NCBI GenBank assembly: GCA_964016885.1 | Contig: OZ024744.1 | Location: 87,482,001-87,546,000, forward strand | DNA length: 64,000 bases | Reading direction: 5' to 3' | Source of the DNA: Eledone cirrhosa | Lineage: Eukaryota | Shown here: in pieces, positions 4,732-61,140 of the stretch | Layout of the letters: the number at the start of each line of letters is the position of its first letter | How positions within the stretch are numbered: position 1 is the stretch's first letter | Notes under the pieces: generated by a model | What the model saw: only the letters and a program-made list of their open reading frames with translations | The model's database searches: none | What the model was told of the DNA's origin: nothing | Program-made: the position numbers and the translations under genes

Positions 4732-5804
4732 CAATATAAACAGTCTTATAAATAGATAGATTCGACATACCTTTCAACTTCGACTTCTATTTGAAAAGTT
4801 GATTTAGTAGTGAAAAAATATTAGGGACAGTTATAAAAAGAAAGAAAGAAAAACGAAGAAAAAGAAGAAATGCATGCAACTAAATAGAGAGAGATAGATA
4901 TAGAGAGATAGATAGAGAGAAGAAATTCATGTAAAGAAACAGAGAGAGATATATAGAGAGAGGAAAAAAAACACAGAGGGAGATAGATAGATAGAGAGAG
5001 AGAGAAGAGAGGAGAGAGAGAGAGAGAGAAAATATAGAGAGATAGATATAGATAGAGATAGAGAGAAAGAAAATAGGTAGATGGGCACCAGTTGAATGAC
5101 GTATCAATGATATATTTATTTATTTATTTATTTATTTAGCTCTAGTATTAATGTAGAGAGAGATATATGTGGTTAAGAGAGAAAACCGCCGTTACATAGA
5201 GAGAAAAGAAAAATATCCAGACATAAACGAGGCAGATTTAAAACACTATGTTTCATCAATGTAAAAAATATCAATTCGTATAAAACAGGCATTATAATGT
5301 AAATATCAGTATTCATGAATGAGACACGTATCAATAATGTGTGAAAAATAATGATCATATGTCTAGTTTAAAATTCCTAGGTTTATATTAGAGTTGAGAT
5401 AAAATAGAAGGTTATCCCAGATGTTATACTATATACATCCATGTGAATTTACGTGATCAGCTCTGCAAATTCCTATTTCACACGAAAACATTCTCATTGT
5501 GCTATAAAATTCTAGTATACATATATGTGTACATACACACAAATATATATAGAGTCTACATTAATTTTAACAATACTATTCATGTCTTTACTCTACATGA
5601 TTATCGTTCAAGCATAAATAGAGAACAGATATCAATATATCAATAAAAATATCAGAAACAAAAAATAAATAAAAATAAAAAAAACACAAAAAAATAAATA
5701 AAAAACTGTCCCTAATATTTTTTCACTACTAAATCAACTTTTCAAATAGAAGTCGAAGTTGAAAGGTATGTCGAATCTATCTATTTATAAGACTGTTTAT
5801 ATTG

Positions 5805-5870
5805 TATTTTGTCTGAAGAAGGCATAACATATTTTTAATATGATATCTCTGAAATATATATAATGAAATA
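5805..5870 (+). ncRNA. Minimal type I hammerhead
   Basis: tattttgt-CTGAAGA-imperfect 14-bp stem II-GAAA-tatatata-atgaaata. Confidence 0.7.
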
Positions 5871-6080
5871 AATATGGTTTTATAAATATAGTTTCCATTT
5901 ATTTAATATCGTATATATATATATATATATTGTTATACTTTGGGAGGGTCATGTTGCCAATAAGAAACACACGCACCAGCTGCTTTCACATCAATTTATT
6001 ATAATAAATTTATAAATTTAGGAATTTATAAATTTCCGGTAGGTTGGTTGGTTCCACAACCAGATGGTTGTTTATGTATT

Positions 6081-6121
6081 GTCAAAGTTCTTTCGTCACA
6101 CATTCTGACCTCTTCAGTGAC
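6081..6121 (-). ncRNA. Very short type I hammerhead (inverted copy of 7382-7422)
   Basis: Reverse complement of gtca-CTGAAGA-g-gtca..tgac-GAAA-gaac-TT-tgac. Confidence 0.6.
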
Positions 6122-6244
6122 TGGGGAATCTTTTCTTTGTTTTTTGTGCTAAACAATTTGCTACACAAATTCAGAAACGAAATATATATATATATATATA
6201 TATACATTGATTTACATATATATATATATATATATATAAAGTTT

Positions 6245-6314
6245 GTCCTTCATCAGTAATCTTCCAACCATCATAGGCATTTCATCGCTTTAAAGACCAT
6301 ATACCTCCGGTTGG
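6245..6314 (-). ncRNA. Permuted-order hammerhead candidate, family 1, copy b
   Basis: As 6886-6955, but stem I 3' strand is aagatta (G-C becomes G.U, pairing retained). Confidence 0.7.
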
Positions 6315-6885
6315 TGCGAACAACGGCTAAAAAAAGTCGTTGGGACACGTAAATAAAGGGGACGCGAGGGTAAACAAACAAAATGGTTAAGCAACAGAAA
6401 GTGAGGAAGGAAAAGACAAGTCCCAGATTTCTATGAATTTAAGTTCGGTGAAATCGTGAACGAGAGAATAAAGACCATCAAACATGGTTGAAATGTGAGC
6501 AAGGAAGGAATTTCGCACAGGTCTAACGGGAGGAAGAAGAGGTCTAGTCTGCGAATTCGGTAAACATAAGTTCTGTGAAATCGCAGACGAGAAAAAAAAA
6601 AAAAAAAAAACGTCTGCGATTTCACAGAACTTATGTTTACCGAATTCGCAGACTAGACCTCTTCTTCCTCCCATTAGACCTGTGCGAAATTCCTTCCTTG
6701 CTCACATTTCAACCAGGTTTGATGGTCTTTATTCTCTCGTTCACGATTTCACCGAACTTAAATTCATAGAAATCTGGGTCTTGTCTTTTCATCCCTCACT
6801 TTCTGTTGCTTAACCATTTTGTTTGTTTACCCTCGCGTCCCCTTTATTTACGTGTCCCAGCGACTTTTTTTAGCCGTTGTTCGCA

Positions 6886-6955
6886 CCAACCGGAGGTATA
6901 TGGTCTTTAAAGCGATGAAATGCCTATGATGGTTGGAAGATCACTGATGAAGGAC
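6886..6955 (+). ncRNA. Permuted-order hammerhead candidate, family 1, copy a
   Basis: ccaacc-gg-aggtaT-A-tggtctt-taaagcgat-GAAA-tgcct-atgat-ggttgg-aagatca-CTGATGA-aggac. Stem III aggtat/atgcct, stem I tggtctt/aagatca, extra helix ccaacc/ggttgg. Confidence 0.7.
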
Positions 6956-7002
6956 AAACTTTTTTCATATGTAACCCATTTGCAACGCCGCAGCTCTATT
7001 AT

Positions 7003-7126
<124 letters not shown>

Positions 7127-7127
7127 G

Positions 7128-7281
<154 letters not shown>

Positions 7282-7381
7282 ATATATAAATCAATGTATA
7301 TATATATATATATATATATATTTCGTTTCTGAATTTGTTTAGCAAATTGTTTAGCACAAAAAACAAAGAAAAGAATCCCCA

Positions 7382-7422
7382 GTCACTGAAGAGGTCAGAA
7401 TGTGTGACGAAAGAACTTTGAC
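7382..7422 (+). ncRNA. Very short type I hammerhead
   Basis: gtca-CTGAAGA-g-gtca-gaatgtg-tgac-GAAA-gaac-TT-tgac, with one extra G between core and stem II. Confidence 0.6.
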
Positions 7423-10438: not shown

Positions 10439-11110
10439 TGAAAAAATGGGGAAAAGAATACTGCAGGTTGCACATGGATAACATGTTATAAAATGAGTCC
10501 CTCATCAGTGATTTGCCGACGATCATAGATATTTCATTGCATTAAAAATCATATACCTCACGTCGGTGCAATAATAACTAAATTAAGTTATTAGGACAAT
10601 TAAAACGCGTAAAGCGAGTGAGACAAGTAAACAACAAAGAAGAAAGCTAATCGTAGAGAGGAAGGGAACAAGCTACATAGTTATTCTGTTAGCATAAGCT
10701 AGGTGAATATATGAGCGCTTAGAAAAAAGACCTTTCGAGATGAATCCAAATGTAAGAAAGAAGGAAAATGTATTCGTTGCGAACGGGGTGAAGTGAGAAG
10801 GGGAGAAACAGTGAGTGAGTGAGTGGAAGTGTGAGGAAGAGTTAACTGACATGACAGAGGGGGTGAAAGAAAGTAGGAGAAACAGAGAGAACGAGGGAGC
10901 AGTAAGAGAGAGAGAGAGAAAAACAGAATCGCAGTTTAGGTAAATATATGTGAAAAAATGGGGAGAAGAATACTGCAGGTTGCACATGGATAACATGTTA
11001 TAAAATGAGTCCCTCATCAGTGATTTGCCGACGATCATAGATATTTCATTGCATTAAAAATCATATACCTCACGTCGGTGCAATAATAACTAAATTAAGT
11101 TATTAGGACA
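10439..11110 (-). mobile_element. Non-coding element with 160-bp direct terminal repeats (pLTR/retrozyme-like) in (TA)n
   Basis: 10439-10598 is almost identical to 10951-11110 (offset 512). Each repeat holds a permuted hammerhead (10497-10566, 11009-11078). Homologous to the 6.2-7.0 kb element. Confidence 0.8.
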
Positions 11111-14379: not shown

Positions 14380-14485
14380 TAGAGGGGGGGAGGAGAAAGC
14401 CTTCATCGGCTAGATACAGGACATCTAAAAGCAATTAGCGGCGCGCCCAAGGCTTTTTATCGACCAATACAAGGCCTTGGGCGCG

Positions 14486-14560
14486 CCGCTGATCGCTTTT
14501 AGGTGTCCTGTAATAAGCGCCGAAACTTCTATGATCTGCGGTTTACAGCTGATGAATGTT
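14486..14560 (+). ncRNA. Permuted-order hammerhead candidate, family 3, GUC site
   Basis: ccgctgatcg-ctttt-aggtGT-C-ctgtaa-taagcgcc-GAAA-cttct-a-tgatctgcgg-t-ttacag-CTGATGA. Stem I ctgtaa/ttacag is perfect. Confidence 0.7.
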
Positions 14561-19139: not shown

Positions 19140-21055
19140 ATATAGTTCAAAATGGAACGGGAGAGGCAGTACGAACAAAGGTTTATTAGTTTCACGCTCT
19201 TGAGAGTGGGGGGCGGACGACGTTTCGGGCATAATCCCTTCTTCAGGCGAAAAGTGGGTGGGAAGAGAGTTCCGAGGGTGTGTAGCGGAGTGGGGGAGAG
19301 ACATTTAGAAAAAAGGGTGGAGGGGCGGTGGAAGGGGTACAAATAAAAAATAAAAAAATAAAAATAAAAATAAACATGAAGATAAACAAGTGGTGGAAGG
19401 ATATGGGGCGTGTAGGAGTGGTGGCGGGTGGAGTAGGGAGAGGGAGGCGGGGTGTCCGAGCGGGGAGGGCTGAAGGTGGTGTATGTGTGTAGGTGTACGT
19501 GTGTGTGTGTGTGTGTATGTGAATGTGGAAGTTGGGGGAAGAACGAGGTTCCATGTTCAGGAAAAGGTGTATGTGTGGGGTGGGGTGTAGGTCAGTGTGT
19601 GTGTGTGCGTGTGGATGGGGAAGGGTCAGAGTGGTGGGGTAGTGTGGAGAGGTTTCCGAAGGCTGAGTGTGTATATATGTGGGGGTACGCACGCGTGTGT
19701 GGTGTTTATACGTTTTGTGGATGTAGGTGGCGTGGTTCGAAAATAATTTTTTTGAGTGTATGTCTGTGGGTGAATTCCTAAGGTAGTTCCGTAGAGGGTG
19801 TGAAGAGTTGCCGGATATTTTCCATGTGATGGAGTAGATTGTGGGAACGATGGCCAGTGGTGTGTAATCCGTGCTTGTGTTAGTCGGAAGAGGGGAGATG
19901 TGGGGTGCGCGCGCACAGGAAGTGGTGACAGGATCAAGGCAGGATGAGGGTAGAGGAGAATGACAGGTGGACAGAGCTGTGTGTCTGTGTGTGCGGAGAA
20001 GTGGTCAGAGGGTCAAGGCATAGCAGCAGTAGAGGAGAATGGCGGGTGGAGAAAGTCAGTGGGTCAGTGTGTGCGGAGGTGCGGTGGACTGGGGAGAGGA
20101 TGGGTAGGTGTGAAAGGTGGAGTGGGGATGGTGTCATGCGGGGTGATGGGGTGTGAATTAGTAGAGGTGTTAGTGGGATGTGTGTGTGGGTAGAGCGGGG
20201 AGAGGGAGAGAAAAGGTGTGGGACGGTGGAGGGAGTGCAGTGTACTGGTGTGTGCATATTTGGATGAGTGTGTGTGTGTGGTGAAAGGGGTGTTAGTATA
20301 CTGGTGGTGGGGAAAGGGTTGAATGCGGGTGTGTTAGTGGGGGTCAGTGGTGGTAGGGTGTGTAGAGTGGGTGGTGTAAGTGGGTGTGGGTGGGTGGGTG
20401 TGTTCGTGTGCGTGGGGTCGGGGGGATGTTAGTGGTATTAGTTGTGGGGTGCTGGGAGCTGGTGTATGGGTGAGGGTTAGTGATGGTAGTAGGGTGTGTG
20501 GATAGTGTGAGTGCGTGTATATATGTACCTGTGTGTTTGTGCGTGATAGGGGGAGGGGTGGGGATGTTAGTATTGTTAGTTGGGGGAGAGTGGTCAGGGG
20601 TGGGGGTGTTAGTATTGTTAGTTGTGGGGTGGGCCAAGGGGGTGGGCGGTGAAAAGGAGGAGTGTGTTAGTGGGGTTAGTGGGGGATATGTGTGTGTGTG
20701 GGGGGGGGGGGGGGAACCGGGCGGTCGAAGGCTAACTGAATAGGGGTGGGGAGTTCAGGCCGGGGGGAGTTTGGGTCTGTAAGGTGAAGATGGTGCGTTG
20801 TTCGACGCTGAGGCGGGTGGCGGGTGTTCCGTAGCATTGGAGTGGGCCACAGACTGTGAGGTGGTGCGCGGAATGTCCAGGGGAGCCAAAGTGGCGGGCG
20901 ATGGGGGAACTCCCGCCGAGACGAATGTCCCGGAGGTGTTCGGTGAAACGGTCCGCCCGGAGGCGTGCATTTTGACCGACGTAGGTTTCGGTGCACTCCG
21001 TGCAGCGAAGTCCATAGACTAGGTTGGAGGAGGTGCAGCGGAAGGCGCACCGGAC
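19140..21055 (-). mobile_element. Penelope-like element 3' portion: GIY-YIG endonuclease C-terminus (20735-21050), C-rich low-complexity 3' region and HHR
   Basis: FRCTSSNLVYGLRCTECTETYVGQ...RFTEH...PIARHF...EQRTIFTLQTQTPPGLN. Confidence 0.9.
19215..19249 (-). ncRNA. Minimal Penelope-type hammerhead in the 3' region of a GIY-YIG element
   Basis: Minus strand reads gc-CTGAAGA-aggg-attatg-ccc-GAAAC-GTC-gt, with AATAAA downstream. Stem I is weak. Confidence 0.7.
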
Positions 21056-21253
21056 AGAGAGAGAGAGAGAGAGAGAGTGGCCGTTGGGACCCTGGAAGGT
21101 GGTGGTGTTGGTGATGTGGGGGCCGGTGTTGCAACGAGATCTGGAACAGGGAAGGTTCGTTTTAATCATTTTCAAACCCAGAAAAAAGAGAGATATAAAT
21201 AAAAAGGGAAAAAAAAAAATGTTTCTTCCTAATAATCGTCTCTTTCTCCCTCT

Positions 21254-21545
<292 letters not shown>

Positions 21546-24289: not shown

Positions 24290-25130
24290 TGTGCACCTTC
24301 TCTGGTGTTTGAACGTCATGATAATCTTCGATTTCAGGTTGACCGCATCATCCTTCAATCTCCATGGCCTCGGAGAGGCATAGCCTACACTTCCTGTTTC
24401 CAGCCGAATATTCATTTGCATGTTGAACGGTACTCTAGTTGAGATTATACGGGGTGGCGTTGTCTTTCAAGTCCCATATTATGTCCTCCAGCCTTGTGGA
24501 GTGCCTCTTGCTCCTGTCCTTGAAAGAGTTTGTGTGATTATACATCCGCGATTTAAAGGTCGTGGATTTGCGCCGATGTAGGTGCGCTTGGTGTTGTACA
24601 TGATAACCACACATTTATATACTAGGCTCTTTGTTAGGCATCTTCCCTGCAGGGGGCATTGTGTGCCCGCTCTGCAGTTGCATGTTCGGTCGTTGTGTTG
24701 CTCATTTCCAACGCTGGGTCCTTGGTCTACTACGACACTCCCCCGGTTCTCTGGGTGTTGTTCTGTCGGTGCGGTGGGCTCCCATCCGTCACTCAGTTCC
24801 GCCCAGCATTCGATTACAGCGTCTTCCGCGGGCTTGGCGGGCATCAATATAGTTGGAAATCCTGTCTACAAGGGGCCCTCCGTGCCCCGCGGGACCGTCA
24901 GTCGCCCGCTGCTGTTGACGGTCGAGTTTCCCCAGCTTCACCCCGTTGGTTTTGGCCATGTAGTCTGCCATGTTAGGTGCGGTGGAAAAGGAGAACTTCA
25001 TGATGTGGCGGTGGAATATCCTGGGGTACCTGCTCGACGGCAGGAAGCACTCGTCCAACGCTCGGAAGAAGAGGCCTGGTGCATTGCTGCGTACATGCTT
25101 CGAATACGGCGCGTTATGTAATGGTCTTAG
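24290..25130 (-). pseudogene. Penelope-like element fragment of a second clade (CNCR..CPL type): RT C-terminus plus GIY-YIG, frameshifted
   Basis: PPYSKHV...IFHRHIMKFSFSTAPNM, CNCRAGTQCPLQGRCLTKSLVYK...YIG, then in another frame FKSRMYNHTNSF...IWDLK...CRLCLSE. Confidence 0.85.
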
Positions 25131-48167: not shown

Positions 48168-48874
48168 ATATATGGAGAATATAAATGGGTGTGTAGTTTT
48201 TCTATTTAAGGTAACTTAAAATGCAGTGGGAATATGAAGAAAGCAAGAACTTGGGGGTCCTCATCAGTTGTCTACTGGAGGTCACGGATATTTCTACGCA
48301 TTAAAGACAAGATATCTACCCCCAGGGCGTTCAATAACTGGGTAAGTTATTGGGAAAACGGAAGAAAGTGGGAAGGGGAAGAACAGAGAAAACAGTAACA
48401 AAACAGCGAAAAAAAACTACAAACCGAGCAATGTGCGAGCAACTATAGGTAGGAAAATCCAAGACCACTCGATAATAAAACTTAAGTTCAAGACTGAGTA
48501 GTCGAGAGAAACAAGACATACGTCAGGTCGCCGCAGTTGTAAGTGAGAAGAGAACTGCTAAACGGTCAGACGAGGGGGTGAAAGTGAGAAGGAGAAAGGG
48601 AGAGGAAGAAAGTGGGGGTAAGAGTAGATAAGGAGAAGAGGACGGGAAGAAAGAGGGCTGAGAGTAGAAAGTGGCAAAATAGGAAGGTAGAAGGGGAAAG
48701 AAGAATATATGGAGAATAGCAATGGCTGTATAGTTGCTATTTAAGGTAGATTAAAATGCAGTGGGAATACGAAGAAAGCAAGAACAGGTGGGGGGGGGGG
48801 GGGAGTTTACCTCATCAGTTGTCTACTGGGGGTCTCGGATATTTCTACGCTTTAAAGACAAGATATCTACCGCC
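48168..48874 (-). mobile_element. Non-coding element with ~155-bp direct terminal repeats, each holding a permuted hammerhead (family 4)
   Basis: 48168-48322 resembles 48706-48871. Motifs at 48256-48325 and 48807-48874 read agataT-C-ttgtct-ttaaWgcgta-GAAA-tatcc...agacaa-CTGATGA. Confidence 0.8.
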
Positions 48875-51320: not shown

Positions 51321-52685
51321 AGAAAATGAGATTTTTTTATAAAAAAAAAAATACGAGATGTCCGACATGGACGAAAGTATAAGCAAAAGAAATTGAAAAT
51401 GCAACTGGAATCTTTTTAAGAATATTTATTTTTTTCCGTTACCGGTTTCACAGTTCGTATGCTTTTCAAAAGTATAATTGTGATTGAGGGTTTGTGGTTT
51501 GTCCTCCAATATATATACATATATACAGAGAGAGAGGGGAGGGAAAGAGAGAGAGGGGAGAGAAAGAGAGAGAGGGGTGCAGATTAGACAGATAGACAGA
51601 TAAGCCAACTGACACTCAGTCGTGTAAGCAGACAATCCCTGAGCAGGTAGATAGACAGAACAAAAAAAAAGGCATTGTAATATAGGCAAAGAAGAGTGCC
51701 GATTGTAATGTAAAGTAGAAAAAGCTATGACATGTAAGTTAATGTCAATATAGTTAATATAAGGAAGATCCATGAAATATATCCCATGGAGAAATGACAT
51801 TATGTTACATTAGGATTACATCTTTTTAATCATTTTAAAATTTACGAGAAAATTAAATTCGTATAAGACTTATTATGACTCCTGGCGATATAATGATGAG
51901 AAAATATATGTAAAAAAAAACAAATATAGCAAAAAATTATCGTATTTTACATAAGAAATATAAGTGACATCGGAGCTTTATTTGTTTATAGATATAACCC
52001 TCTGTCTACTTGACCGTAGTGTTTGAAGATGTCTGATAATTGTTCAAAAAGCTTCGCGAAGCATAAAAATGGAATAGCTGAAAGTGCTTACACTCTATTT
52101 TACCCACAAGGTCGTCTAATTCAAAAACTGCAGTTATATCTACATTAAATATATTTTCTCAACAATCTGGTTAGTTAGTTACTCAAAAGCATAATTTTCC
52201 TTTTTTTTTTGTGGGGCTGGGTATTCAGCTTCAATTGTATATGAAATTCAATTAGTCAAAAATGTGTTTTGATAGGCTGAGCTTGTTAAAAATTGAATGT
52301 CTCCAGGTAGATCGTTGAACAGAACGTTGGAGTAACAGGTGTTGTCATCGTGTAATAATAATAATAATGATTTCTTTATTGGCCACAAGAGCTGACATCA
52401 AGAAAAACATTACAGACGGCACAGGACGGTACAGGACGGTACGTTGTCTGTTTTGTGCGTGTAAACATTTTTATTATTTATATAAGAAAAGAAATAAAAT
52501 ACATAGAAATATATATAAAAAATAAAAATGAAAGTTCAAACAATGAAAAATTCCCCAATAGGACAAAACCTCCTAGGGTTACTGATGGCGAAAACCACAC
52601 AAAAGACACGGCAACACTGACCACCAGGGCCAGCCCCCTCTCTCAATGTTTTCCCATTCCTCAAACTACAAACGCATAATAATAC

Positions 52686-54456
52686 ATGGGATGGATAGAT
52701 TACAAAAAAGCATTCTACATGGTATCTCATTCTTGGATAACCAAAAGCCTAGAGATCTTCAAGGTGGCAGATAACGTCAGACAGTTGTTGAGAAAAAGTA
52801 TGAAGTCCTGGGAAACAGAGTTAACATCGGGGGGAGAATCCTTGGGAGGCGGGAAGATCAAGAGAGGTATCTTCCAGAGAGATAGTTTGTCCCCTCTGTT
52901 GTTTGTCCTTGCCCTGATACCCCTGACCACTATATTGCGAAAAGTGAGAGCAGGATACGAGTTGGGAAAAGGAGAGCTTACCATCAACCACCTCCTCTTC
53001 ATGGACGATCTTAAACTCTTTGGGAAGAGTGAGAAGGAGTTGGATTTACTTGTTGACACTGTACGTATTTTCAGCAATGATATATGTATGGAATTTGGTA
53101 TTAATAAGTGTGGAGTCCTAGTGATGAAGAGGGGTAAATTGAGCAGAAGCAACGGAATCCAGGTACCAGTAGGTGAGATGATAAAGGAAATTGACACTGA
53201 AGAGGGATACAATATTTAGGTGTTCTGGAGACAGATGACATTAAGAACAAAAATAAATGAAGGAATTGATAAGATCTGAGTACATTAGGAGAGTAAGGAG
53301 CGTATTAAAGTCACATCTAAATAGTAGGAATGCCATAAGTGCAGTGAATTCCCGAGCTGTGTCTATTATTAGGTACAGTGTGGGAATTCTGAAATGGAAT
53401 GTTACTGAACAAAAAGAAATGGATAGGAAGACTATGGATAGGAAGCTATTGACTATCTACAACATGTTCTCCAAGAGGAGTGATTTCGATAATTCTACTT
53501 AAAGAGATCTGAAGGTGGAAGAGGTCTTATCAGCATAGAGGACTCTGTTCAGATGGAGAAAAACCTACACAAATACGTGATCGATAGTAAGGAGCCAATG
53601 CTCAGAATTGTACTGAAGGAGAGGACAATAGACCAGGGGATGTGTTAGGAGGAAATAACAACAAGGAGGAAGAGCAACCTTCATGAAAAATCCTTTCATA
53701 ATATCTTCTTTAAGAAAACTGAATTTAGAGATCCACAGACATGGAACTGGTTAAAAAGAGGAGACCTTAAAAAGGCTACAGAAGGAATGATAATGGCTGC
53801 GCAAGAGCAGGCACTCAGAACGAAGTGGGTGAAACACCATATTTACAAGGAGGGCGAAACACCATATTTACTGTGTAGGATCTGTGGAGAGAGAAAGGAG
53901 ACTGTGGCTCACCTTGTATCCGTGTGTAAACACCTAGCCCAGACTCACTATAAAGGCTGGAGCCATGATGTGATGGGCAGAGTGATCCACATTCTGAGAA
54001 GTGGTATGAGCATAAGCCAGAGTCGGTGATAGAAAACGATCAGGTGAAGGTGCTATGGGATTTTAGGATACAGGCGAACAATAAATTAGAACACAATAAG
54101 CCTGAACTGGTGGTTTACGACAAGGAAAAAAGATCGTGCCTGATTGTAGATATAGCATGCCCATTTGAAACGAGAGTGCAAGAAAAGGAGAGGGAGAAAA
54201 GTAACCGATACTAGGACCTAAAGTAGGGGTTAAACAGGATTTGAAACTGCCATGAAATCAAGGTCGTTCCGATTGTCATAGGCGCATTAGGTACTATCTC
54301 AAAGTGTTTCCAAGGATGGTTAAAGAAGGTTAGTCCAGCCCCGCTTTTTGGAACACTTCTAAAGGCATGCTTGCTGGGAACAGCAAGAACCCTCCGATAC
54401 GTCCTGAATATCTGAGGCTGCAGGTAAATAACATCAATGACTGAGACTCAAAGAAC
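52686..54456 (+). mobile_element. R4/Dong-type RLE LINE, 5'-truncated and decayed (family X)
   Basis: [47 protein letters not shown] and PE/DIACP motifs. Preceded by taataata and followed by (TAA)n. Confidence 0.95.
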
Positions 54457-54553
<97 letters not shown>

Positions 54554-54608
54554 GAAAGGGTGTAAACGAGGCTCATATGGCTGTAAGGATCAGCTTCTGG
54601 TTAACAAA

Positions 54609-56519
54609 ATGATACTGGAAGATTGTCATAATAGACACAAAAATCTATCGATTGCTTGGATAGATTATAAAAAAGCATTTGATAGTTTGCCACACAGTTG
54701 GATTGAAAAATGTTTAGAGATTTTCAAAATATCCCCCGTTGTCAGGAGGTTTTTGTCATTCAGTATGATGACATGGAGAACGACACTCCTTTTGAATAGT
54801 GAAACAAAATCACTGGAAGCTGGAGAAGTTAACATTAATTGTGGAATTTTTCAGGGTGACTCTTTATCACCGCTTTTATTCTGCATCGCACTTATACCAT
54901 TAAGTAAAATGCTCAATGAAACAAAACATGGATATAGAGTCTATGACAAAACCATTAATCACCTGTGCTACATGGATGACCTGAAACTATTCGCAAAAAA
55001 TGATGAACAATTGCAAGGGCTATTATCCACTGTGAAGCAGTTCAGTGATGACATTAAAATGGAGTTTGGACTGGATAAATGCGCCAAAGCAACGTTCACC
55101 AGAGGAAAGCTGCTGAAGAGTTCAGACATTAATCTTGATCGGGGGAACGTGATAAGAGAGCTTGATCAAGAACAAACTTACAAATATCTAGGTGTTTGTG
55201 AAGGAGACGGAATCAAGCACTCGACAATGAGGGAAAGGATAAGGAAGGAATGTTACCGCAGAGTCAGAGCAATCTTAAGAACGGAATTGAATGCAAGGAA
55301 TAGGATCGATGCCATAAACACGCTTGCCATACCAGTAGTAACCTACAGTTACAATGTCATCAACTGGTCAAGCACAGAGATCCGTAGGCTCGATACAAAA
55401 ATCCGAAAATTCTTAACCATGCACAGAATGCATCACCCTAAGGCAGACATAGATAGAATATATCTCCCTAGGAAAGAAGGAGGACGTGGGTTAATCCAGT
55501 TAGACATTGCGTTGAAAACTGCAACAATTGGATTATCCACATATCTAAGGGAATCACATGATTGGATGATCAAACTCGTTTTGAAACACGAAAGCACCAA
55601 AAGATCATATTCCATTACAAAAGATGCACAAAGATACAGTAATGGACTACAAATTTCAGAAGTCCCATTTACTGCTGAAATGGAAAACACAGGAAAAGCA
55701 AAGCTGGTAAAAGTAACTGCAAAGAAAGAACTGCTACAGAAACTGGCTAAGAAATGGCAAGAAAAGCCTCTGTATGGAAAATACCCAGAGCGAGCTAACA
55801 ATCCTGATGTTGACAAAACTTTAACCCATCAGTGGTTGGCATCCTCTGGACTGAAATCGGAGACTGAAGGACTGATTATATCCGCACAAGATCAGTGTCT
55901 GCCAACAAAAAATTACCAAGCCAACATAATAAAAAATGGGTGCAGCCCATTATGCCGTGTATGCAAAAAACAACCAGAGACCATTGACCATATAATTTCA
56001 ATGTGCAGTCCTATAGCTCCAACCGAATACCTAAACAGGCATGACAGAGCTGCACAATACATACATTGGATAATGTGTAAGCATTTTGACCTGCCCCATC
56101 AAAAGAATTGGTGGGAGCATCAACCACCTCCCATACTTGAAAAAGATCACATCTCAATCTTGTGGAACTTTAGCATCCAAACAGACCGAAAAATAGATGC
56201 AAATAGACCTGATATAATATTGAAGGACTTTCAAAGGAGGGTATGCCTGCTAATTGATATGTCTGTTCCAATAGACAAGAATGTATCTATAAAAACATTT
56301 GAAAAATTGAGCAAGTATAAGGACCTGGAGATAGAAATTGGAAAAATGTGGAAATTGAGAACTAAAACAATACCAGTGGTTGTAGGCGCTCTGGGAATGA
56401 TACCTAAGGGGTCTAACGACTACTTATCGCAAATCCCAGGAAACCCGCGTATAGGAGAAATACAAAAGATAGTACTAATGGGAACTGCCCATATACTAAG
56501 GAAGATCCTGTCAATATAA
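54609..56519 (+). CDS. R4/Dong-type LINE ORF: RT, CCHC zinc knuckle and restriction-like endonuclease (5'-truncated element 54551-56660, family Y)
   Basis: Uninterrupted 636 aa: [67 protein letters not shown]. (TAA)n on both sides. Confidence 0.95.
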
Positions 56520-57539: not shown

Positions 57540-60500
57540 TATGTTCGTCTACAGCGTGATAGTGCGACACTAAAATCACCGGTGGTTATGTAACCATACA
57601 TTCACCAATTCTCGATAAGAGTGTTTAAATGTCGAACCTAAACAGTTCGAATAACGGTGAAGTGGAGACTGGAATGTCATGTGACAGACTCTCACCCAGC
57701 AGGTGCTCCCTGGCTCAGCAGCAGGGACCTGGCTGTCAACCAAATACTGCTGGTGTCGGCGGAAGAAGAAGAAGGAAAGCGACCAGAACCAACTGGACGA
57801 AAGAATTGATTAGAACTGTTATGCAATGTTACCTGAAGAGTAACCCCAAGGAGAAAGGCTATAGGAAACGGATGCATAACATCTGGAACGAGATTGGTCT
57901 ATTTAAAGTAGATGAACAAAAATTGGCCAGGCAGGCTCGGGTAATAAGAACTAATGGATGGATAAGCGAGCTGGAACTGGAGGAACTGAGCAGAGAGATT
58001 AGGTTGGAAATGGAGGGTGGAGTATGCCAGGCAAACGAGCCAGTGGGAAATGAAGGTGAAGAGGTTGAGAGAACGGAGGAACCATCCGAAGAAGACAATG
58101 ATCTGAATGCTGAAATAAATAATACCTGGGACAAAGATACGGCCATTGAGGAGATGAATGCTGACGGGCTAGGACAAGATTTGGTTGATATCCTAAACTT
58201 AGTGGTAGATGAATTGAACAATGATAGTGGGAAACCTATGAACCTAAGATTTGTAGACAGGAAAAAGTTAAAAGAAACAACAGCTAAGGTAAACAAAGTC
58301 ATCCCATACCTTGAGGCGAGGAGCCTTCACCAGTGCAACAATATCCTCAAAGCAACAGCAAATGCGGTGAGAAAATTACTTGGCATAAAAGCGAGAGGAA
58401 ACAACAAACAAGAAAGATCAGAACCTTGGTGGAAGAAACGACTGAATGGTCAAATCAGGGAAATGAGAAATGAGATTGGAAAGCTTGAGTCCCTACTGAA
58501 TGGGACACTAAAAAACATAGACACTGAAAATAGACTGGAAATAAAGTACAAAACTTGGAGGAAAAAGCTAAATATTATCATAGAGGAACTGAAGCAACGC
58601 ATTGTAGCAAAGAGTGCAAAAATTAGGCGATACGAGAGCAGAGTCAGTCAGTATAGACAGAACCGCATGTTTGACAACAACCAGAAGATGCTGTTTGGAC
58701 AGCTTGAAGGGAAAGAAAGAGGCAACGACTTGATCACTGAGGCGGAACAAACTAAGACATTCTGGAGAGGAATATGGGAGCAGGATGTTAAACATAATGA
58801 CCAGGCAGTGTGGATTGAGACAGTACAAAAGGAGATTAGTGAACAGGCACACCAACAAACTGATTTGAGTATCACAGTTGAAATTCTTAAGGGGCAGGCC
58901 AAAAAAAAATTAACCAACTGGAAATAACCAGGCCCAGATGGTGTGCAAGGGTATTGGATTAAAAATATAACATCCCTCCACTCGAAACTGACAACCATGT
59001 TCAATGACTGCTTGATGTCAGGTGAGGTACCAGAGTGGTTGACAAAAGGTACCACAGTTCTGGTAATGAAAGACCGAATCAAGGGTAATGATGTTACCAA
59101 CAATAGACCTATCACATGTCTGTCCGTAATGTGGAAACTGTTGACAAGCATTATGTCTGAGGAAATCTACCATCACCTCCACACAAACAACTTGTTAACG
59201 GACGAACAGAAAGGATGCCGAAAGAAGTCGCGTGGTACAAAGGACCAGTTACTTATTGATAAGATGGTAATGAGGAATTGCAAGAGGAAACACACTGGTC
59301 TTGCCATGGGATGGATAGACTACAAAAAGGCATTTGACATGGTGCCTCATTCTTGGATCACCAAAATCCTAGTGATCTTCAAGGTGGCAGATAACATGAG
59401 ACAGTTGTTGGGCAAAAGTATGAAGTGCTGGAAAACAGAGTTAACATCAGCTGGAGAATCCCTGGGAGTCGTGAAGACCAAGAGAGGTATCTTCCAGGGA
59501 GATAGTCTGTCCCCACTGTTGTTTGTCCTTGCCCTGATGCCCCTGACCATTATACTGCGAAAAGTGAGAGCAGGGTACAAGTTGGGAAAGGGAGAGCTTA
59601 CCATCAATCACTTCCTCTTCATGGACGATCTTAAGCTCTTCGGGAAGAGTGAGAAGGAGTTGGATGTGCTTGTTGACACTGTCCGTATTTTCAGCAATGA
59701 TATATGTATGCAATTTGGTATTAGTAAGTGTGGAGTCCTTGTGATGAAGAGGGATAAATTGAGCAGAAGCAACGGAATCCAGATACCAACAGGTGAGATG
59801 ATAAAGGAAATTGACACTGAAGAAGGATACAAGTATTTGGGTGTTCTGGAGACTGATGACATCAAGAACAAAAAAAAATGAAGGAATTGATAAGATCTGA
59901 ATACATTCGGAGAGTAAGGAGCGTATTAAAGTCACATATGAACAGTAGGAATGCCATAAGTGCAGTAAATTCCCGAGCTGTGTCTATTATTATGTACAGT
60001 GCGGGAATTCTGAGATGGAATGTTGCTGAACAAAACGAAATCGATAGGAAGACTAGGAAGCTATTGTCTATCTACAACATGTTCCACAAGAGGAGTGATG
60101 TCGATAGACTCTACTTAAGGAGATCTGAAGGTGGAAGAGGTCTTATCAGCATAGAGGACTGTGTTCAGATGGAGAAAAACAACCTACACAAATACGTGAC
60201 CGATAGTAAGGAGCCAATGCTCAGAATTGTACTGAAGGAGAGGACAATAGACCAGGGTATGTCCAAAGAGGAATTAACAACAAGGAGAAAGAGCAGCCTT
60301 CATGAAAAATCCCTTCATAGTACCTTCTTTGAGAAAACGGAATTCAGAGATCCACAGACATGGAACTGGTTGAAAAGAGGAGACCTTAAAAAGGCTACAG
60401 AAGGAATGCTAATGGCTGCGCAAGAGCAGGCCCTCAAAACGAAGTGGTTGAAACACCATATTTACAAGAAGGAGGCTAGCCCACTGTGCAGGATCTGTGG

Positions 60501-61140
60501 AGAGAGAGAGGCGACTGTGGCTCACATTGTATCCGAGTGTAAACACCTAGCCCAGACTCACTATAAAGGCTGGTGACATGATGTGAGTGATGGGCAGGGT
60601 GTTCCACTGGCACCTATGCAAAGTAAACAATTTACCACATTCTGAGAAGTGGTATGAGCATAAGCCAGAGGCGGTGATAGAAAACGATCGTTTGAAAGTG
60701 CTGTGGGATTTTAGGATACAGACGGACAAGAAACTGGAACACAATAGACCTGACCTGGTGGTTTTGGATAAGGAAAAAAGATCGTGCCTGATTGTGGATG
60801 TGGCCTGCCCATTCGACACGAGAGTGCAAGAGAAGGAGAGGTAGGAAATTAACCGATACCAGGGCTTAAAATGGGAGGTAAAAAGGATTTGGAACTGCCA
60901 TGAAGTCAAAGTGGTCCCGATTGTCATAGGCGCACTAGGTACTATCTCAAAAAGTTTCCAGAGATGGTTAAAGAAAATTGGCCCCGCTCCGCTTTTTGGA
61001 ACGCTTCAAAAGGCATTCTTGCTGGGAACAGCAAGAACCCTCCGATACGTCCTGAATATCTGAGGCTGCAGGTAGTGGCTTGATATTCATTTCAACAAAC
61101 TTTCCAGTTAACTAACATCAATGACTGAGACTCAAAGAAC
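57540..61140 (+). mobile_element. Near full-length R4/Dong-type RLE LINE (family X) with disablements
   Basis: Single long ORF 57629-61063, broken by an in-frame stop at NWK*PGPDG (58925), a frameshift in the A-run at ~59875 and later stops. The 3' end caatgactgagactcaaagaac+(TAA)n is shared with the 52.7-kb copy. Confidence 0.95.

What the first reader, a model, noticed from the sequence alone, without database searches (positions are those of the whole stretch)
48168..48874. Second direct-repeat element, from a different family, with the permuted hammerhead in both repeats
Seen: the same architecture as 10439-11110 (~155-bp direct repeats, ~550-nt period, pyrimidine-rich spacer on the ribozyme strand, TA-rich flanks) but a strongly diverged sequence with an AUC site. 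A short hairpin precedes the motif in both families (aataact..agttatt). Inference: an old, diversified class of small retroelements defined by this ribozyme.
Basis: partly seen in the sequence, partly recalled or inferred. Interest (0 to 1): 0.7.

Follow-up and report, generated by a model that had tools for sequence, protein, structure and literature searches.

The report
Split-core hammerhead shared by unrelated retroelements
This short non-coding jumping repeat carries a predicted self-cutting hammerhead RNA wired in an order I found no paper on, and the same predicted fold sits at the tail of two unrelated kinds of protein-coding retrotransposon, which would make it a shared, overlooked part of how they copy themselves; cutting is untested.

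Summary
Observation largely confirmed: a 707-nt, 1.3-mer non-coding element (551-nt period, repeats 141/154 identical, TA flanks), one of thousands of copies; the motif class has at least 16,344 exact genome matches versus 8 in the control. The hammerhead words run cut site-GAAA-CUGAUGA (type-SGC order). Covariation over 21 sequences supports four helices (93% paired, 0/500 shuffles), but stem II is made by an upstream strand, not the strand after CUGAUGA (35%, chance). The chain opens at A9/10.1 into a predicted four-way junction, and stem III holds a predicted kink-turn. Only the left repeat is complete; the right one starts 13 nt before its cut site. 5' ends of longer copies pile up at the predicted cut (15 of 24). 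The scan found this fold before on other DNA, tied to Naiad Penelope-like elements; I confirmed that by eye in published Naiad sequences. New here: the same fold lies in the 3' UTR of a restriction-endonuclease-type LINE (HERO-like) in this genome (18 of 30 loci intact) and in 7 metagenome contigs, and that LINE also forms direct-repeat 1.2-mers. Best reading: a non-autonomous, Naiad-type retrozyme. No cleavage or RNA data.

The parts
48168..48874 (-). Whole non-autonomous element, a 1.28-mer of a 551-nt unit; 3' end at 48168 runs into a TA repeat
48168..48323 (-). Downstream (left) direct repeat
48705..48874 (-). Upstream (right) direct repeat; holds only the 3' half of a ribozyme (cut site C48862, GAAA 48842-48845, CUGAUGA 48812-48818) plus 13 nt
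48361..48704 (-). Pyrimidine-rich spacer (77% C+T); no tRNA head, no Rfam family, no similarity to LINE or Penelope ORFs tested
48258..48359 (-). Complete predicted split-core hammerhead of the left copy
48353..48359 (-). P0 5' strand; pairs with the strand after CUGAUGA (48258-48260, only 3 bp in this copy; 7 bp in the GGAAAAC variant, 8 of 29 family copies)
48332..48352 (-). Hairpin H, 8 bp, directly 5' of the stem II partner strand (junction arm)
48327..48331 (-). Stem II partner strand (position 10.x equivalent); pairs with 48295-48299 (4 bp, core-proximal pair is A.A)
48312..48325 (-). Outer stem III strand (48320-48325), kink-turn short strand (48317-48319, UA instead of GA here), inner stem III strand (48313-48316), U16.1 (48312)
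48311..48311 (-). C17, predicted cleavage immediately 3' of it (AUC)
   Evidence: position inferred from hammerhead analogy
48291..48310 (-). Stem I 5' strand (48305-48310), conserved UUAAW linker (48300-48304), stem II 11.x strand (48295-48299), GAAA (48291-48294)
48261..48290 (-). Inner stem III 3' strand (48287-48290), 3-nt bulge and GA of the predicted kink-turn (48282-48286), outer stem III 3' strand (48275-48280), stem I 3' strand (48268-48273), CUGAUGA (48261-48267)
10439..11110 (-). Companion element of another, younger family (repeats 167/170 identical), two complete motifs
6880..6955 (+). Motif of a third family; an inverted partner has its GAAA at 6283 (-)
14485..14560 (+). Motif of a fourth family (GUC site, 3-nt linker)

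Best explanation
This is a protein-less retroelement, likely a retrozyme derived from the tail of a Naiad-type Penelope-like element, whose minus-strand RNA is predicted to fold into a self-cleaving hammerhead of the non-circularly permuted class with its core opened between A9 and position 10.1. Shown: the order of the core words, four covarying helices, fixed 3' ends in TA repeats, variable 5' ends, partial tandems and head-to-head inversions. Inferred: read-through transcription of a copy longer than one unit; cleavage at the upstream ribozyme sets the 5' end of the template (or two cuts and re-ligation give a circle); a Penelope-type endonuclease/reverse transcriptase acting in trans nicks (TA)n, the nicked strand anneals to an internal CAU(AU) about 143-151 nt 3' of the cut and primes cDNA that runs through the downstream ribozyme and mostly stops by the upstream cut, giving 1.x-mers that look like LTR elements. 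In 3D (inferred), the kink-turn bends stem III back so that its outer helix reaches the far ends of stems I and II, the role of the stem I-II helix in validated type-SGC ribozymes, while P0 and the hairpin clamp the opened core as a four-way junction.
For: Fold: 22 pairs in 4 helices 93.1% paired versus 64.6% shuffled, covariation 0.839 versus 0.281, 0/500, slid registers at most 0.167; upstream stem II 85.7%, 0/500; canonical stem II 35.2%, 142/500. Core CUGAnGA, GAAA, U16.1 invariant in 21 of 21; H17 is A, C or U, never G, in 86 of 86 passing copies. An independent metagenome scan gave 10 of 78 hits with the full geometry and wholly different stems. Kink-turn: GA before inner stem III in 18 of 21; GA after the 3-nt bulge in 70 of 74 members of an unconstrained list (counted by eye). 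A tested type-SGC ribozyme has one extra U at the same A9/10.1 link (oligos in supplement of PMC10085705, read by eye). Element: 51 of 59 true 3' ends have (TA)4 within 24 nt, 42 of 87 exceed one unit, 15 of 24 that reach the second ribozyme end within 30 nt of the cut versus 6 of 52 at the first; two alternative internal 3' ends; 9 head-to-head versus 0 tail-to-tail pairs in 100 hits. Origin: published Naiad_Obim and Naiad_Ovul, which insert in (TA)n, end in the same fold with the same 23-nt spacing and the same hairpin loop as three small families here (by eye).
Against: No cleavage or RNA data. In this family the core-proximal stem II pair is a mismatch (11.1 is A in 28 of 29 copies), the kink-turn GA is kept in only 8 of 29 and P0 is 3 bp in the window copy; the pseudoknot-free minimum-energy fold of the window copy is a different structure that uses the C-run after CUGAUGA, so this old copy may be dead. 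The aligned sequences were chosen for fixed spacing and for pairing in stems I and inner III, and are related, which inflates. Two motif searches found no Naiad in this genome, and PMC8557442 calls cephalopod Naiads old remnants, so the enzyme used is not identified. 9 of 24 long copies run on past the upstream cut, and copies share master loci, so the P of about 1e-6 overstates the case.
Confidence: 0.72

Rival explanations
1. Same ribozyme, but the small elements derive from, or are moved by, the restriction-endonuclease-type (HERO-like) LINE, as its SINE-like passengers.
For: The LINE is present in this genome (149 of 150 scored candidates) with the same fold just behind its ORF in 18 of 30 loci, 0 of 90 controls; it forms the same direct-repeat 1.2-mer (611-bp repeats, ribozyme in both, L269); 7 of 21 of its 3' ends meet (TA)3 versus 10% background; metagenome LINE copies share the UUAAW linker and 23-nt spacing with the small elements.
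Against: The two LINE families seen in this genome have a 24-nt spacing and other linkers; no shared 3' end or BLAST similarity with the small families; TA targeting is weaker and inversions are few (2 of 23); most copies carry stops. A canonical type I retrozyme family here shows the same tandem and head-to-head pattern, which points to shared Penelope-type machinery.
Confidence: 0.13
2. The fold is real but no longer (or never) cuts in this family; it is kept as a protein-binding structure (for example a kink-turn and junction recognised by the reverse transcriptase or a host L7Ae-type protein) and the 5' pile-up reflects pausing or inherited master ends.
For: Mismatch at 10.1-11.1, weak P0 and changed kink-turn in this family; competing fold; copies cross the downstream cut site without a break.
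Against: All catalytic positions and the no-G rule at H17 are kept across about ten families and two protein-coding element types; no excess of stops at the first ribozyme met (6 of 52), as simple pausing would give.
Confidence: 0.1
3. The motif is an ordinary hammerhead assembled between two repeats or two RNA molecules (canonical type I or III dimer), or a standard type-SGC with stem II right after CUGAUGA.
For: Penelope-associated hammerheads are reported to act as dimers (title of ref. 58 in PMC10085705); position 11.1 can pair with the base after A9 in 10 of 21 sequences.
Against: Any canonical assembly needs the strand after CUGAUGA to pair with the strand before GAAA; that pairing is at chance in all seven registers, while the upstream strand covaries. 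Single copies in LINE 3' UTRs keep the same geometry. Rfam finds hammerhead hits in the canonical family (E to 1.8e-7) but none in L001, L250, L155.
Confidence: 0.05

Closest known systems
Type-SGC non-circularly permuted hammerheads (HRIMA-1 and variant; Eckert et al. 2023, PMC10085705; parts 2-5 of 8, supplement part 1 of 42)
   Same: Order cut site, GAAA, CUGAnGA; short linker from stem I to the 11.x strand; an extra helix joining the far ends of stems I and II; core nucleotides kept.
   Different: [quoted passage not shown] Here block C is split, stem II comes from an upstream strand, P0 and a hairpin form a four-way junction, both stem III strands join the extra helix through a predicted kink-turn ('kink' 0 hits in their supplement), and it is in animal retroelements.
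Metazoan non-LTR retrozymes (Cervera and de la Pena 2020, PMC7229834, passages; Li et al. 2026, 10.64898/2026.07.22.740005, parts 1-2 of 5)
   Same: Non-coding tandem units of a few hundred nt with one hammerhead each, proposed to be moved by Penelope-like elements.
   Different: Those carry type I hammerheads and were shown to make circular RNA; here the hammerhead is permuted, units are about 450-680 nt, mostly 1.x-mers, and no RNA is shown.
Naiad Penelope-like elements (Craig et al. 2021, PMC8557442 and its preprint; passages, supplement passages and part 24 of 59)
   Same: (TA)n targeting, partial tandems, inverted 5' copies; their 3' ends hold this fold (read by eye; the authors noted only 'HHR_half_core').
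   Different: Naiads encode endonuclease and reverse transcriptase; this element encodes nothing and no Naiad was found in this genome by two motif searches.
HERO clade of restriction-like-endonuclease LINEs (clade described in PMC4640811, passages; the label for these sequences is recalled, not tested against a named HERO)
   Same: A single ~1,100-1,180 aa ORF with N-terminal zinc finger, RT, CCHC finger, RHD and PD-(D/E)xK motifs is followed by the same ribozyme fold.
   Different: I found no report of a hammerhead in such LINEs; the small element shares only the ribozyme architecture with them.
Pseudoknot (pistol-like) hammerhead (Zhan et al. 2024, PMC11300833; parts 1-3 of 6)
   Same: Stem II role filled by a long-range helix; an A-rich linker near stem I.
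   Different: There G10.1-C11.1 closes a loop right after CUGAnGA, and the linker joins a different helix to stem I; no four-way junction or kink-turn is described.

Membership tests
Hammerhead ribozyme | Core CUGAnGA, GAAA and NUH (H not G) | tested here: met
Hammerhead ribozyme | Stems I and III flanking the cut site, with covariation | tested here: met
   (sequences partly selected for these stems)
Hammerhead ribozyme | A helix stacked on G12.A9 (stem II) | tested here: met
   upstream partner strand, 85.7% paired; core-proximal pair is a mismatch in this family
Hammerhead ribozyme | Site-specific self-cleavage | not testable with these tools
   only indirect: 5' ends cluster at the predicted cut
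Hammerhead types I, II, III | Circular order of the three blocks | tested here: not met
   order is S-G-C; no Rfam hammerhead hit
Type-SGC hammerhead (Eckert 2023) | Block order S, G, C | tested here: met
Type-SGC hammerhead (Eckert 2023) | Stem II strand directly after CUGAnGA (intact block C) | tested here: not met
   35.2% paired, 142/500 shuffles
Type-SGC hammerhead (Eckert 2023) | Helix joining distal stems I and II | tested here: met
   outer stem III helix, 95.2% paired; equivalence is my inference
Kink-turn | 3-nt bulge followed by tandem G.A/A.G pairs (definition recalled) | tested here: inconclusive
   pattern in 18 of 21 sequences but 8 of 29 in this family; one family has Watson-Crick pairs there; geometry untested
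Non-LTR retrozyme | Non-coding tandem unit with one hammerhead | tested here: met
Non-LTR retrozyme | Type I hammerhead | tested here: not met
Non-LTR retrozyme | Expressed as linear and circular RNA | not testable with these tools
   no RNA holder listed
Non-autonomous Penelope-like (Naiad-type) element | (TA)n targeting, partial tandems, inverted 5' copies | tested here: met
Non-autonomous Penelope-like (Naiad-type) element | Autonomous partner with the same tail in the same genome | tested here: inconclusive
   same fold in published Naiads; none found here; Hydra-type and a second C-terminal-endonuclease type seen here carry canonical type I motifs
LTR retrozyme / LTR element | Fixed terminal repeats at both ends, type III hammerhead | tested here: not met
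   5' ends variable
tRNA-derived SINE | tRNA head | tested here: not met
HERO clade (for the LINE carrying the ribozyme) | RT phylogeny with named HERO elements | not tested
   no named reference on hand; only domain motifs and 20-27% identity to the genome's TAA-tailed LINE

The most novel reading that the evidence does not exclude
One split-core, kink-turn-braced hammerhead module has been swapped between Penelope-like (Naiad) elements and restriction-endonuclease LINEs, and it gives these LINEs an undescribed life cycle: a ribozyme about 95-170 nt inside the 3' end processes tandem transcripts into unit-length, possibly circular, RNA that is primed internally, so that a LINE integrates as an LTR-like 1.x-mer; a host kink-turn-binding protein could switch cutting on or off.
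Probability: 0.35. Interest if true: 0.92.

Novelty: new variant of a known kind. Interest (0 to 1): 0.8.

Why it matters
It would be a hammerhead wiring that breaks the block rule of the 2023 permutation paper, and the first non-circularly permuted hammerhead in animal genomes that my searches could find in print (open-licence library only). Standard descriptors and Rfam miss it, so roughly 20,000 copies in one genome were invisible. It explains the reported lack of hammerheads in Naiads and adds a second, unrelated carrier, a LINE, with the ribozyme at the 3' end. That makes the open question of what retroelement hammerheads do directly testable across two enzyme classes. A natural kink-turn in a hammerhead would also be a ready protein-responsive switch.

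Tried and rejected
RNA evidence: no RNA holder listed; Logan contigs of runs of unknown kind laid on the companion element and on the LINE tail were uninformative. Rfam gathering scan of the window: 0; E-value scan: no hammerhead in L001, L250, L155. tRNA head: none. Hydra-type Penelope elements as carriers of this fold: no, canonical type I motifs in the 30 loci. The young TAA-tailed LINE: no motif in the 3' UTR of 8 of 8 copies. Naiad in this genome: 0 with two patterns. Viral contigs: 4 pattern hits, none with the geometry; no relative of the LINE C-terminus. My first idea, a 1-bp stem II between the base after A9 and 11.1, was dropped. A 24-nt spacing scan gave 947 versus 377 control, mostly chance or other repeats. 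The 470-nt tandem family is a canonical type I retrozyme, not this fold. The '27 of 27' TA count printed came from a faulty test and was replaced; one search stopped with an error and was rerun. The first alignment had one truncated row and misaligned rows and was replaced, which leaves out the two LINE families of this genome and two small families because their spacing differs. DNA around the LINE's named fish, lancelet and bivalve relatives was not obtained, so the ribozyme is not checked there.

Full report
Observation. The element spans 48168-48874. Its repeats (48168-48323, 48705-48874) share 141 of 154 aligned columns, the cut-to-cut period is 551 nt and the spacer is 77% pyrimidine on the minus strand. 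Both repeats read AUC, then GAAA 17 nt later, then CUGAUGA 23 nt after that. The right repeat starts 13 nt before its cut site and lacks the upstream half of the fold. The companion at 10439-11110 is a younger family (167/170) that shares only a 33-nt BLAST piece. The genome is a 3.0-Gb animal assembly, probably a cephalopod (inference, not tested).

Abundance. The element has 2,798 first-look candidates; the 40 scored are 81-88% identical apart from itself. A spacing pattern gives 16,344 matches versus 8 for the reversed control, a complementary one 2,120 versus 304, and the bare GAAA-N23-CUGAUGA 28,105 versus 506. By eye 74 of the first 100 rows belong to this fold, 16 to a canonical type I retrozyme and 10 to neither, which extrapolates to about 20,000 copies. 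About ten families differ in all helix sequences; same-strand neighbours lie 445-679 nt apart.

Fold. The order cut site, GAAA, CUGAnGA is the type-SGC order of Eckert et al. (PMC10085705), who validated it from metatranscriptomes and assumed that CUGAnGA and its stem II strand are inseparable. On a gap-free alignment of 12 copies from this genome and 9 from metagenome contigs, 22 pairs in four helices are 93.1% paired with covariation 0.839 (shuffles 64.6% and 0.281, 0/500; slid registers at most 45.2% and 0.167). The rows were chosen for equal spacing and had passed a filter on stems I and inner III, and they are related, so these values lean high; the two counts of pair types were reached by 15 and 31 of 500 shuffles. 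The key contrast holds within the same rows: the five bases before GAAA do not pair with the strand after CUGAUGA (35.2%, 142/500) but with a strand just 5' of outer stem III (85.7%, 0/500). A hairpin lies directly 5' of that strand in 17 of 18 representatives, and the strand after CUGAUGA pairs with the stretch directly 5' of the hairpin (P0): best of 18 partners and -10 to -26 kcal/mol in five LINE-type copies, 5-7 bp in most small families, 3 bp in the window copy. So the chain is opened at A9/10.1 and closed as a four-way junction. Between inner and outer stem III sit a 3-nt bulge and GA on both strands, a kink-turn pattern (definition recalled): 18 of 21 on the unselected strand, 70 of 74 on the other in the unconstrained list. 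The outer helix joins the far ends of stems I and II, as helix 'I' does in SGC-2, which also has one extra U at A9/10.1 (supplement oligos, read by eye). The pseudoknot hammerhead of Zhan et al. (PMC11300833) is wired differently. Against activity in this family: 11.1 is A in 28 of 29 copies and unpaired, the kink-turn GA survives in 8 of 29, and the nested minimum-energy fold of the window copy is a misfold.

Mobility. I sampled 87 elements by a 22-nt word near the 3' end (330 genome matches; the first 100 rows were listed, 90 fetched, 3 duplicates dropped). 59 anchors were true ends, 51 with (TA)4 within 24 nt; 42 elements exceed one unit. Two 3' ends 8 nt apart, both at CAT inside the unit, imply priming on an RNA that continues past the insert end. 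Of 24 elements that reach the second ribozyme, 15 end within 30 nt of the predicted cut, against 6 of 52 at the first ribozyme and about 18% per 60 nt elsewhere (binomial about 1e-6; copies are not independent, 9 run further, and AT microhomology near the cut may help). 5 of 87 have an inverted copy upstream; head-to-head pairs outnumber tail-to-tail 9 to 0. These are Penelope-like traits as described by Craig et al..

Protein-coding carriers. A scan of metagenome contigs gave 74 hits, and viral contigs 4; 10 of these 78 show the full geometry and one nearly does. Seven of these 11 lie directly behind the end of an ORF with restriction-like endonuclease motifs, 6-92 nt from stop to cut where the frame could be read; two more are pieces of the same tails, two show no ORF. 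Relatives are ~1,100-1,180 aa RT proteins, named by their sources in fishes, lancelets and bivalves. In this genome the same LINE type (about 40% identical) has the fold behind its ORF in 18 of 30 loci, in part in 7, not in 5; 0 of 90 control stretches. L269 is a full-length copy with 611-bp direct repeats, 95.6% alike, a ribozyme in each, 3.6 kb apart: the finding's architecture in a LINE. I call it HERO-like from recall; PMC4640811 and PMC7650587 only describe the clade. A young TAA-tailed LINE lacks the motif (8 of 8), and Hydra-type elements have canonical type I motifs. Earlier notes of this scan tied the fold to Naiads; none of the rows shown mentions a LINE. I checked the Naiad lead by eye: Naiad_Obim, Naiad_Ovul and three other Naiad consensus tails fit the fold, the first two with the same spacing, kink-turn and hairpin loop as small families here; the authors listed only a half core. 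Two motif searches found no Naiad in this genome.

Verdict. Works like a retrozyme (PMC7229834; 10.64898/2026.07.22.740005) with a hammerhead of the type-SGC 3D class; it is not a member of type SGC as defined, nor of types I-III. Naiad origin and Penelope-type mobilisation are the best reading (0.72), LINE mobilisation (0.13), a non-cutting structure (0.10) and canonical assembly (0.05) are rivals. Searches that found no description of this wiring, of a permuted hammerhead in animal genomes, or of a hammerhead in HERO elements: (listings only, except the papers named). Cleavage, expression and the enzyme used remain untested.

Noticed in passing
L219, L220, L235-L238 (G000:C1, e.g. 22634000-22637700): Abundant 466-470-nt tandem family with a canonical type I hammerhead with a short palindromic stem III (classical non-LTR retrozyme); sub-threshold Rfam HH9 hits; also forms head-to-head arrays.
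   Followed up: partly
window about 4775-7400: Large head-to-head inverted duplication that includes the third family's motif (6283 -, 6917 +) and canonical type I hammerheads of a Penelope-like tail (near 6135 - and 7368 +).
   Followed up: no
window 52683-54029, 54552-56519, 57629-60576; L354-L361: Nested restriction-endonuclease LINEs; the family at 57629-60576 is young, with 1,134-1,141 aa open frames elsewhere and (TAA)n tails (R4/Dong-like by recall), often inserted into other LINEs.
   Followed up: partly
L111-L140: Very abundant Hydra-type Penelope-like elements (19,086 first-look candidates) with canonical type I hammerheads and many inversions; a candidate source of the enzyme that moves the small elements.
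   Followed up: partly
window 20732-21457 (-) and 24479-24865 (-): GIY-YIG endonuclease fragments of two Penelope-like types.
   Followed up: no
L198 and L145 (metagenome): The same core geometry with no adjacent ORF and a different arrangement of the extra helices; perhaps another small-element family.
   Followed up: no
L084, L087, L099, L100, window 14522: One family replaces the kink-turn GA pairs by Watson-Crick pairs but keeps the 3-nt bulge, and has a 3-nt linker; a natural control for the kink-turn's role.
   Followed up: no
alignment A2, columns 1, 37, 72: Position 11.1 pairs with the upstream strand in 11 of 21 rows and with the base after A9 in 10 of 21 (either one in 18 of 21), as if the junction branch-migrates by one pair.
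   Followed up: partly
L155:800-1187; L250, L256: The LINE's 3' end runs directly into the 5' end of the next unit, and some single copies keep 1-3 bases of it, again pointing to internal priming.
   Followed up: partly
L005:2955-3575: An open frame that looks like a von Willebrand A domain exon (recalled) about 700 nt from a family copy.
   Followed up: no
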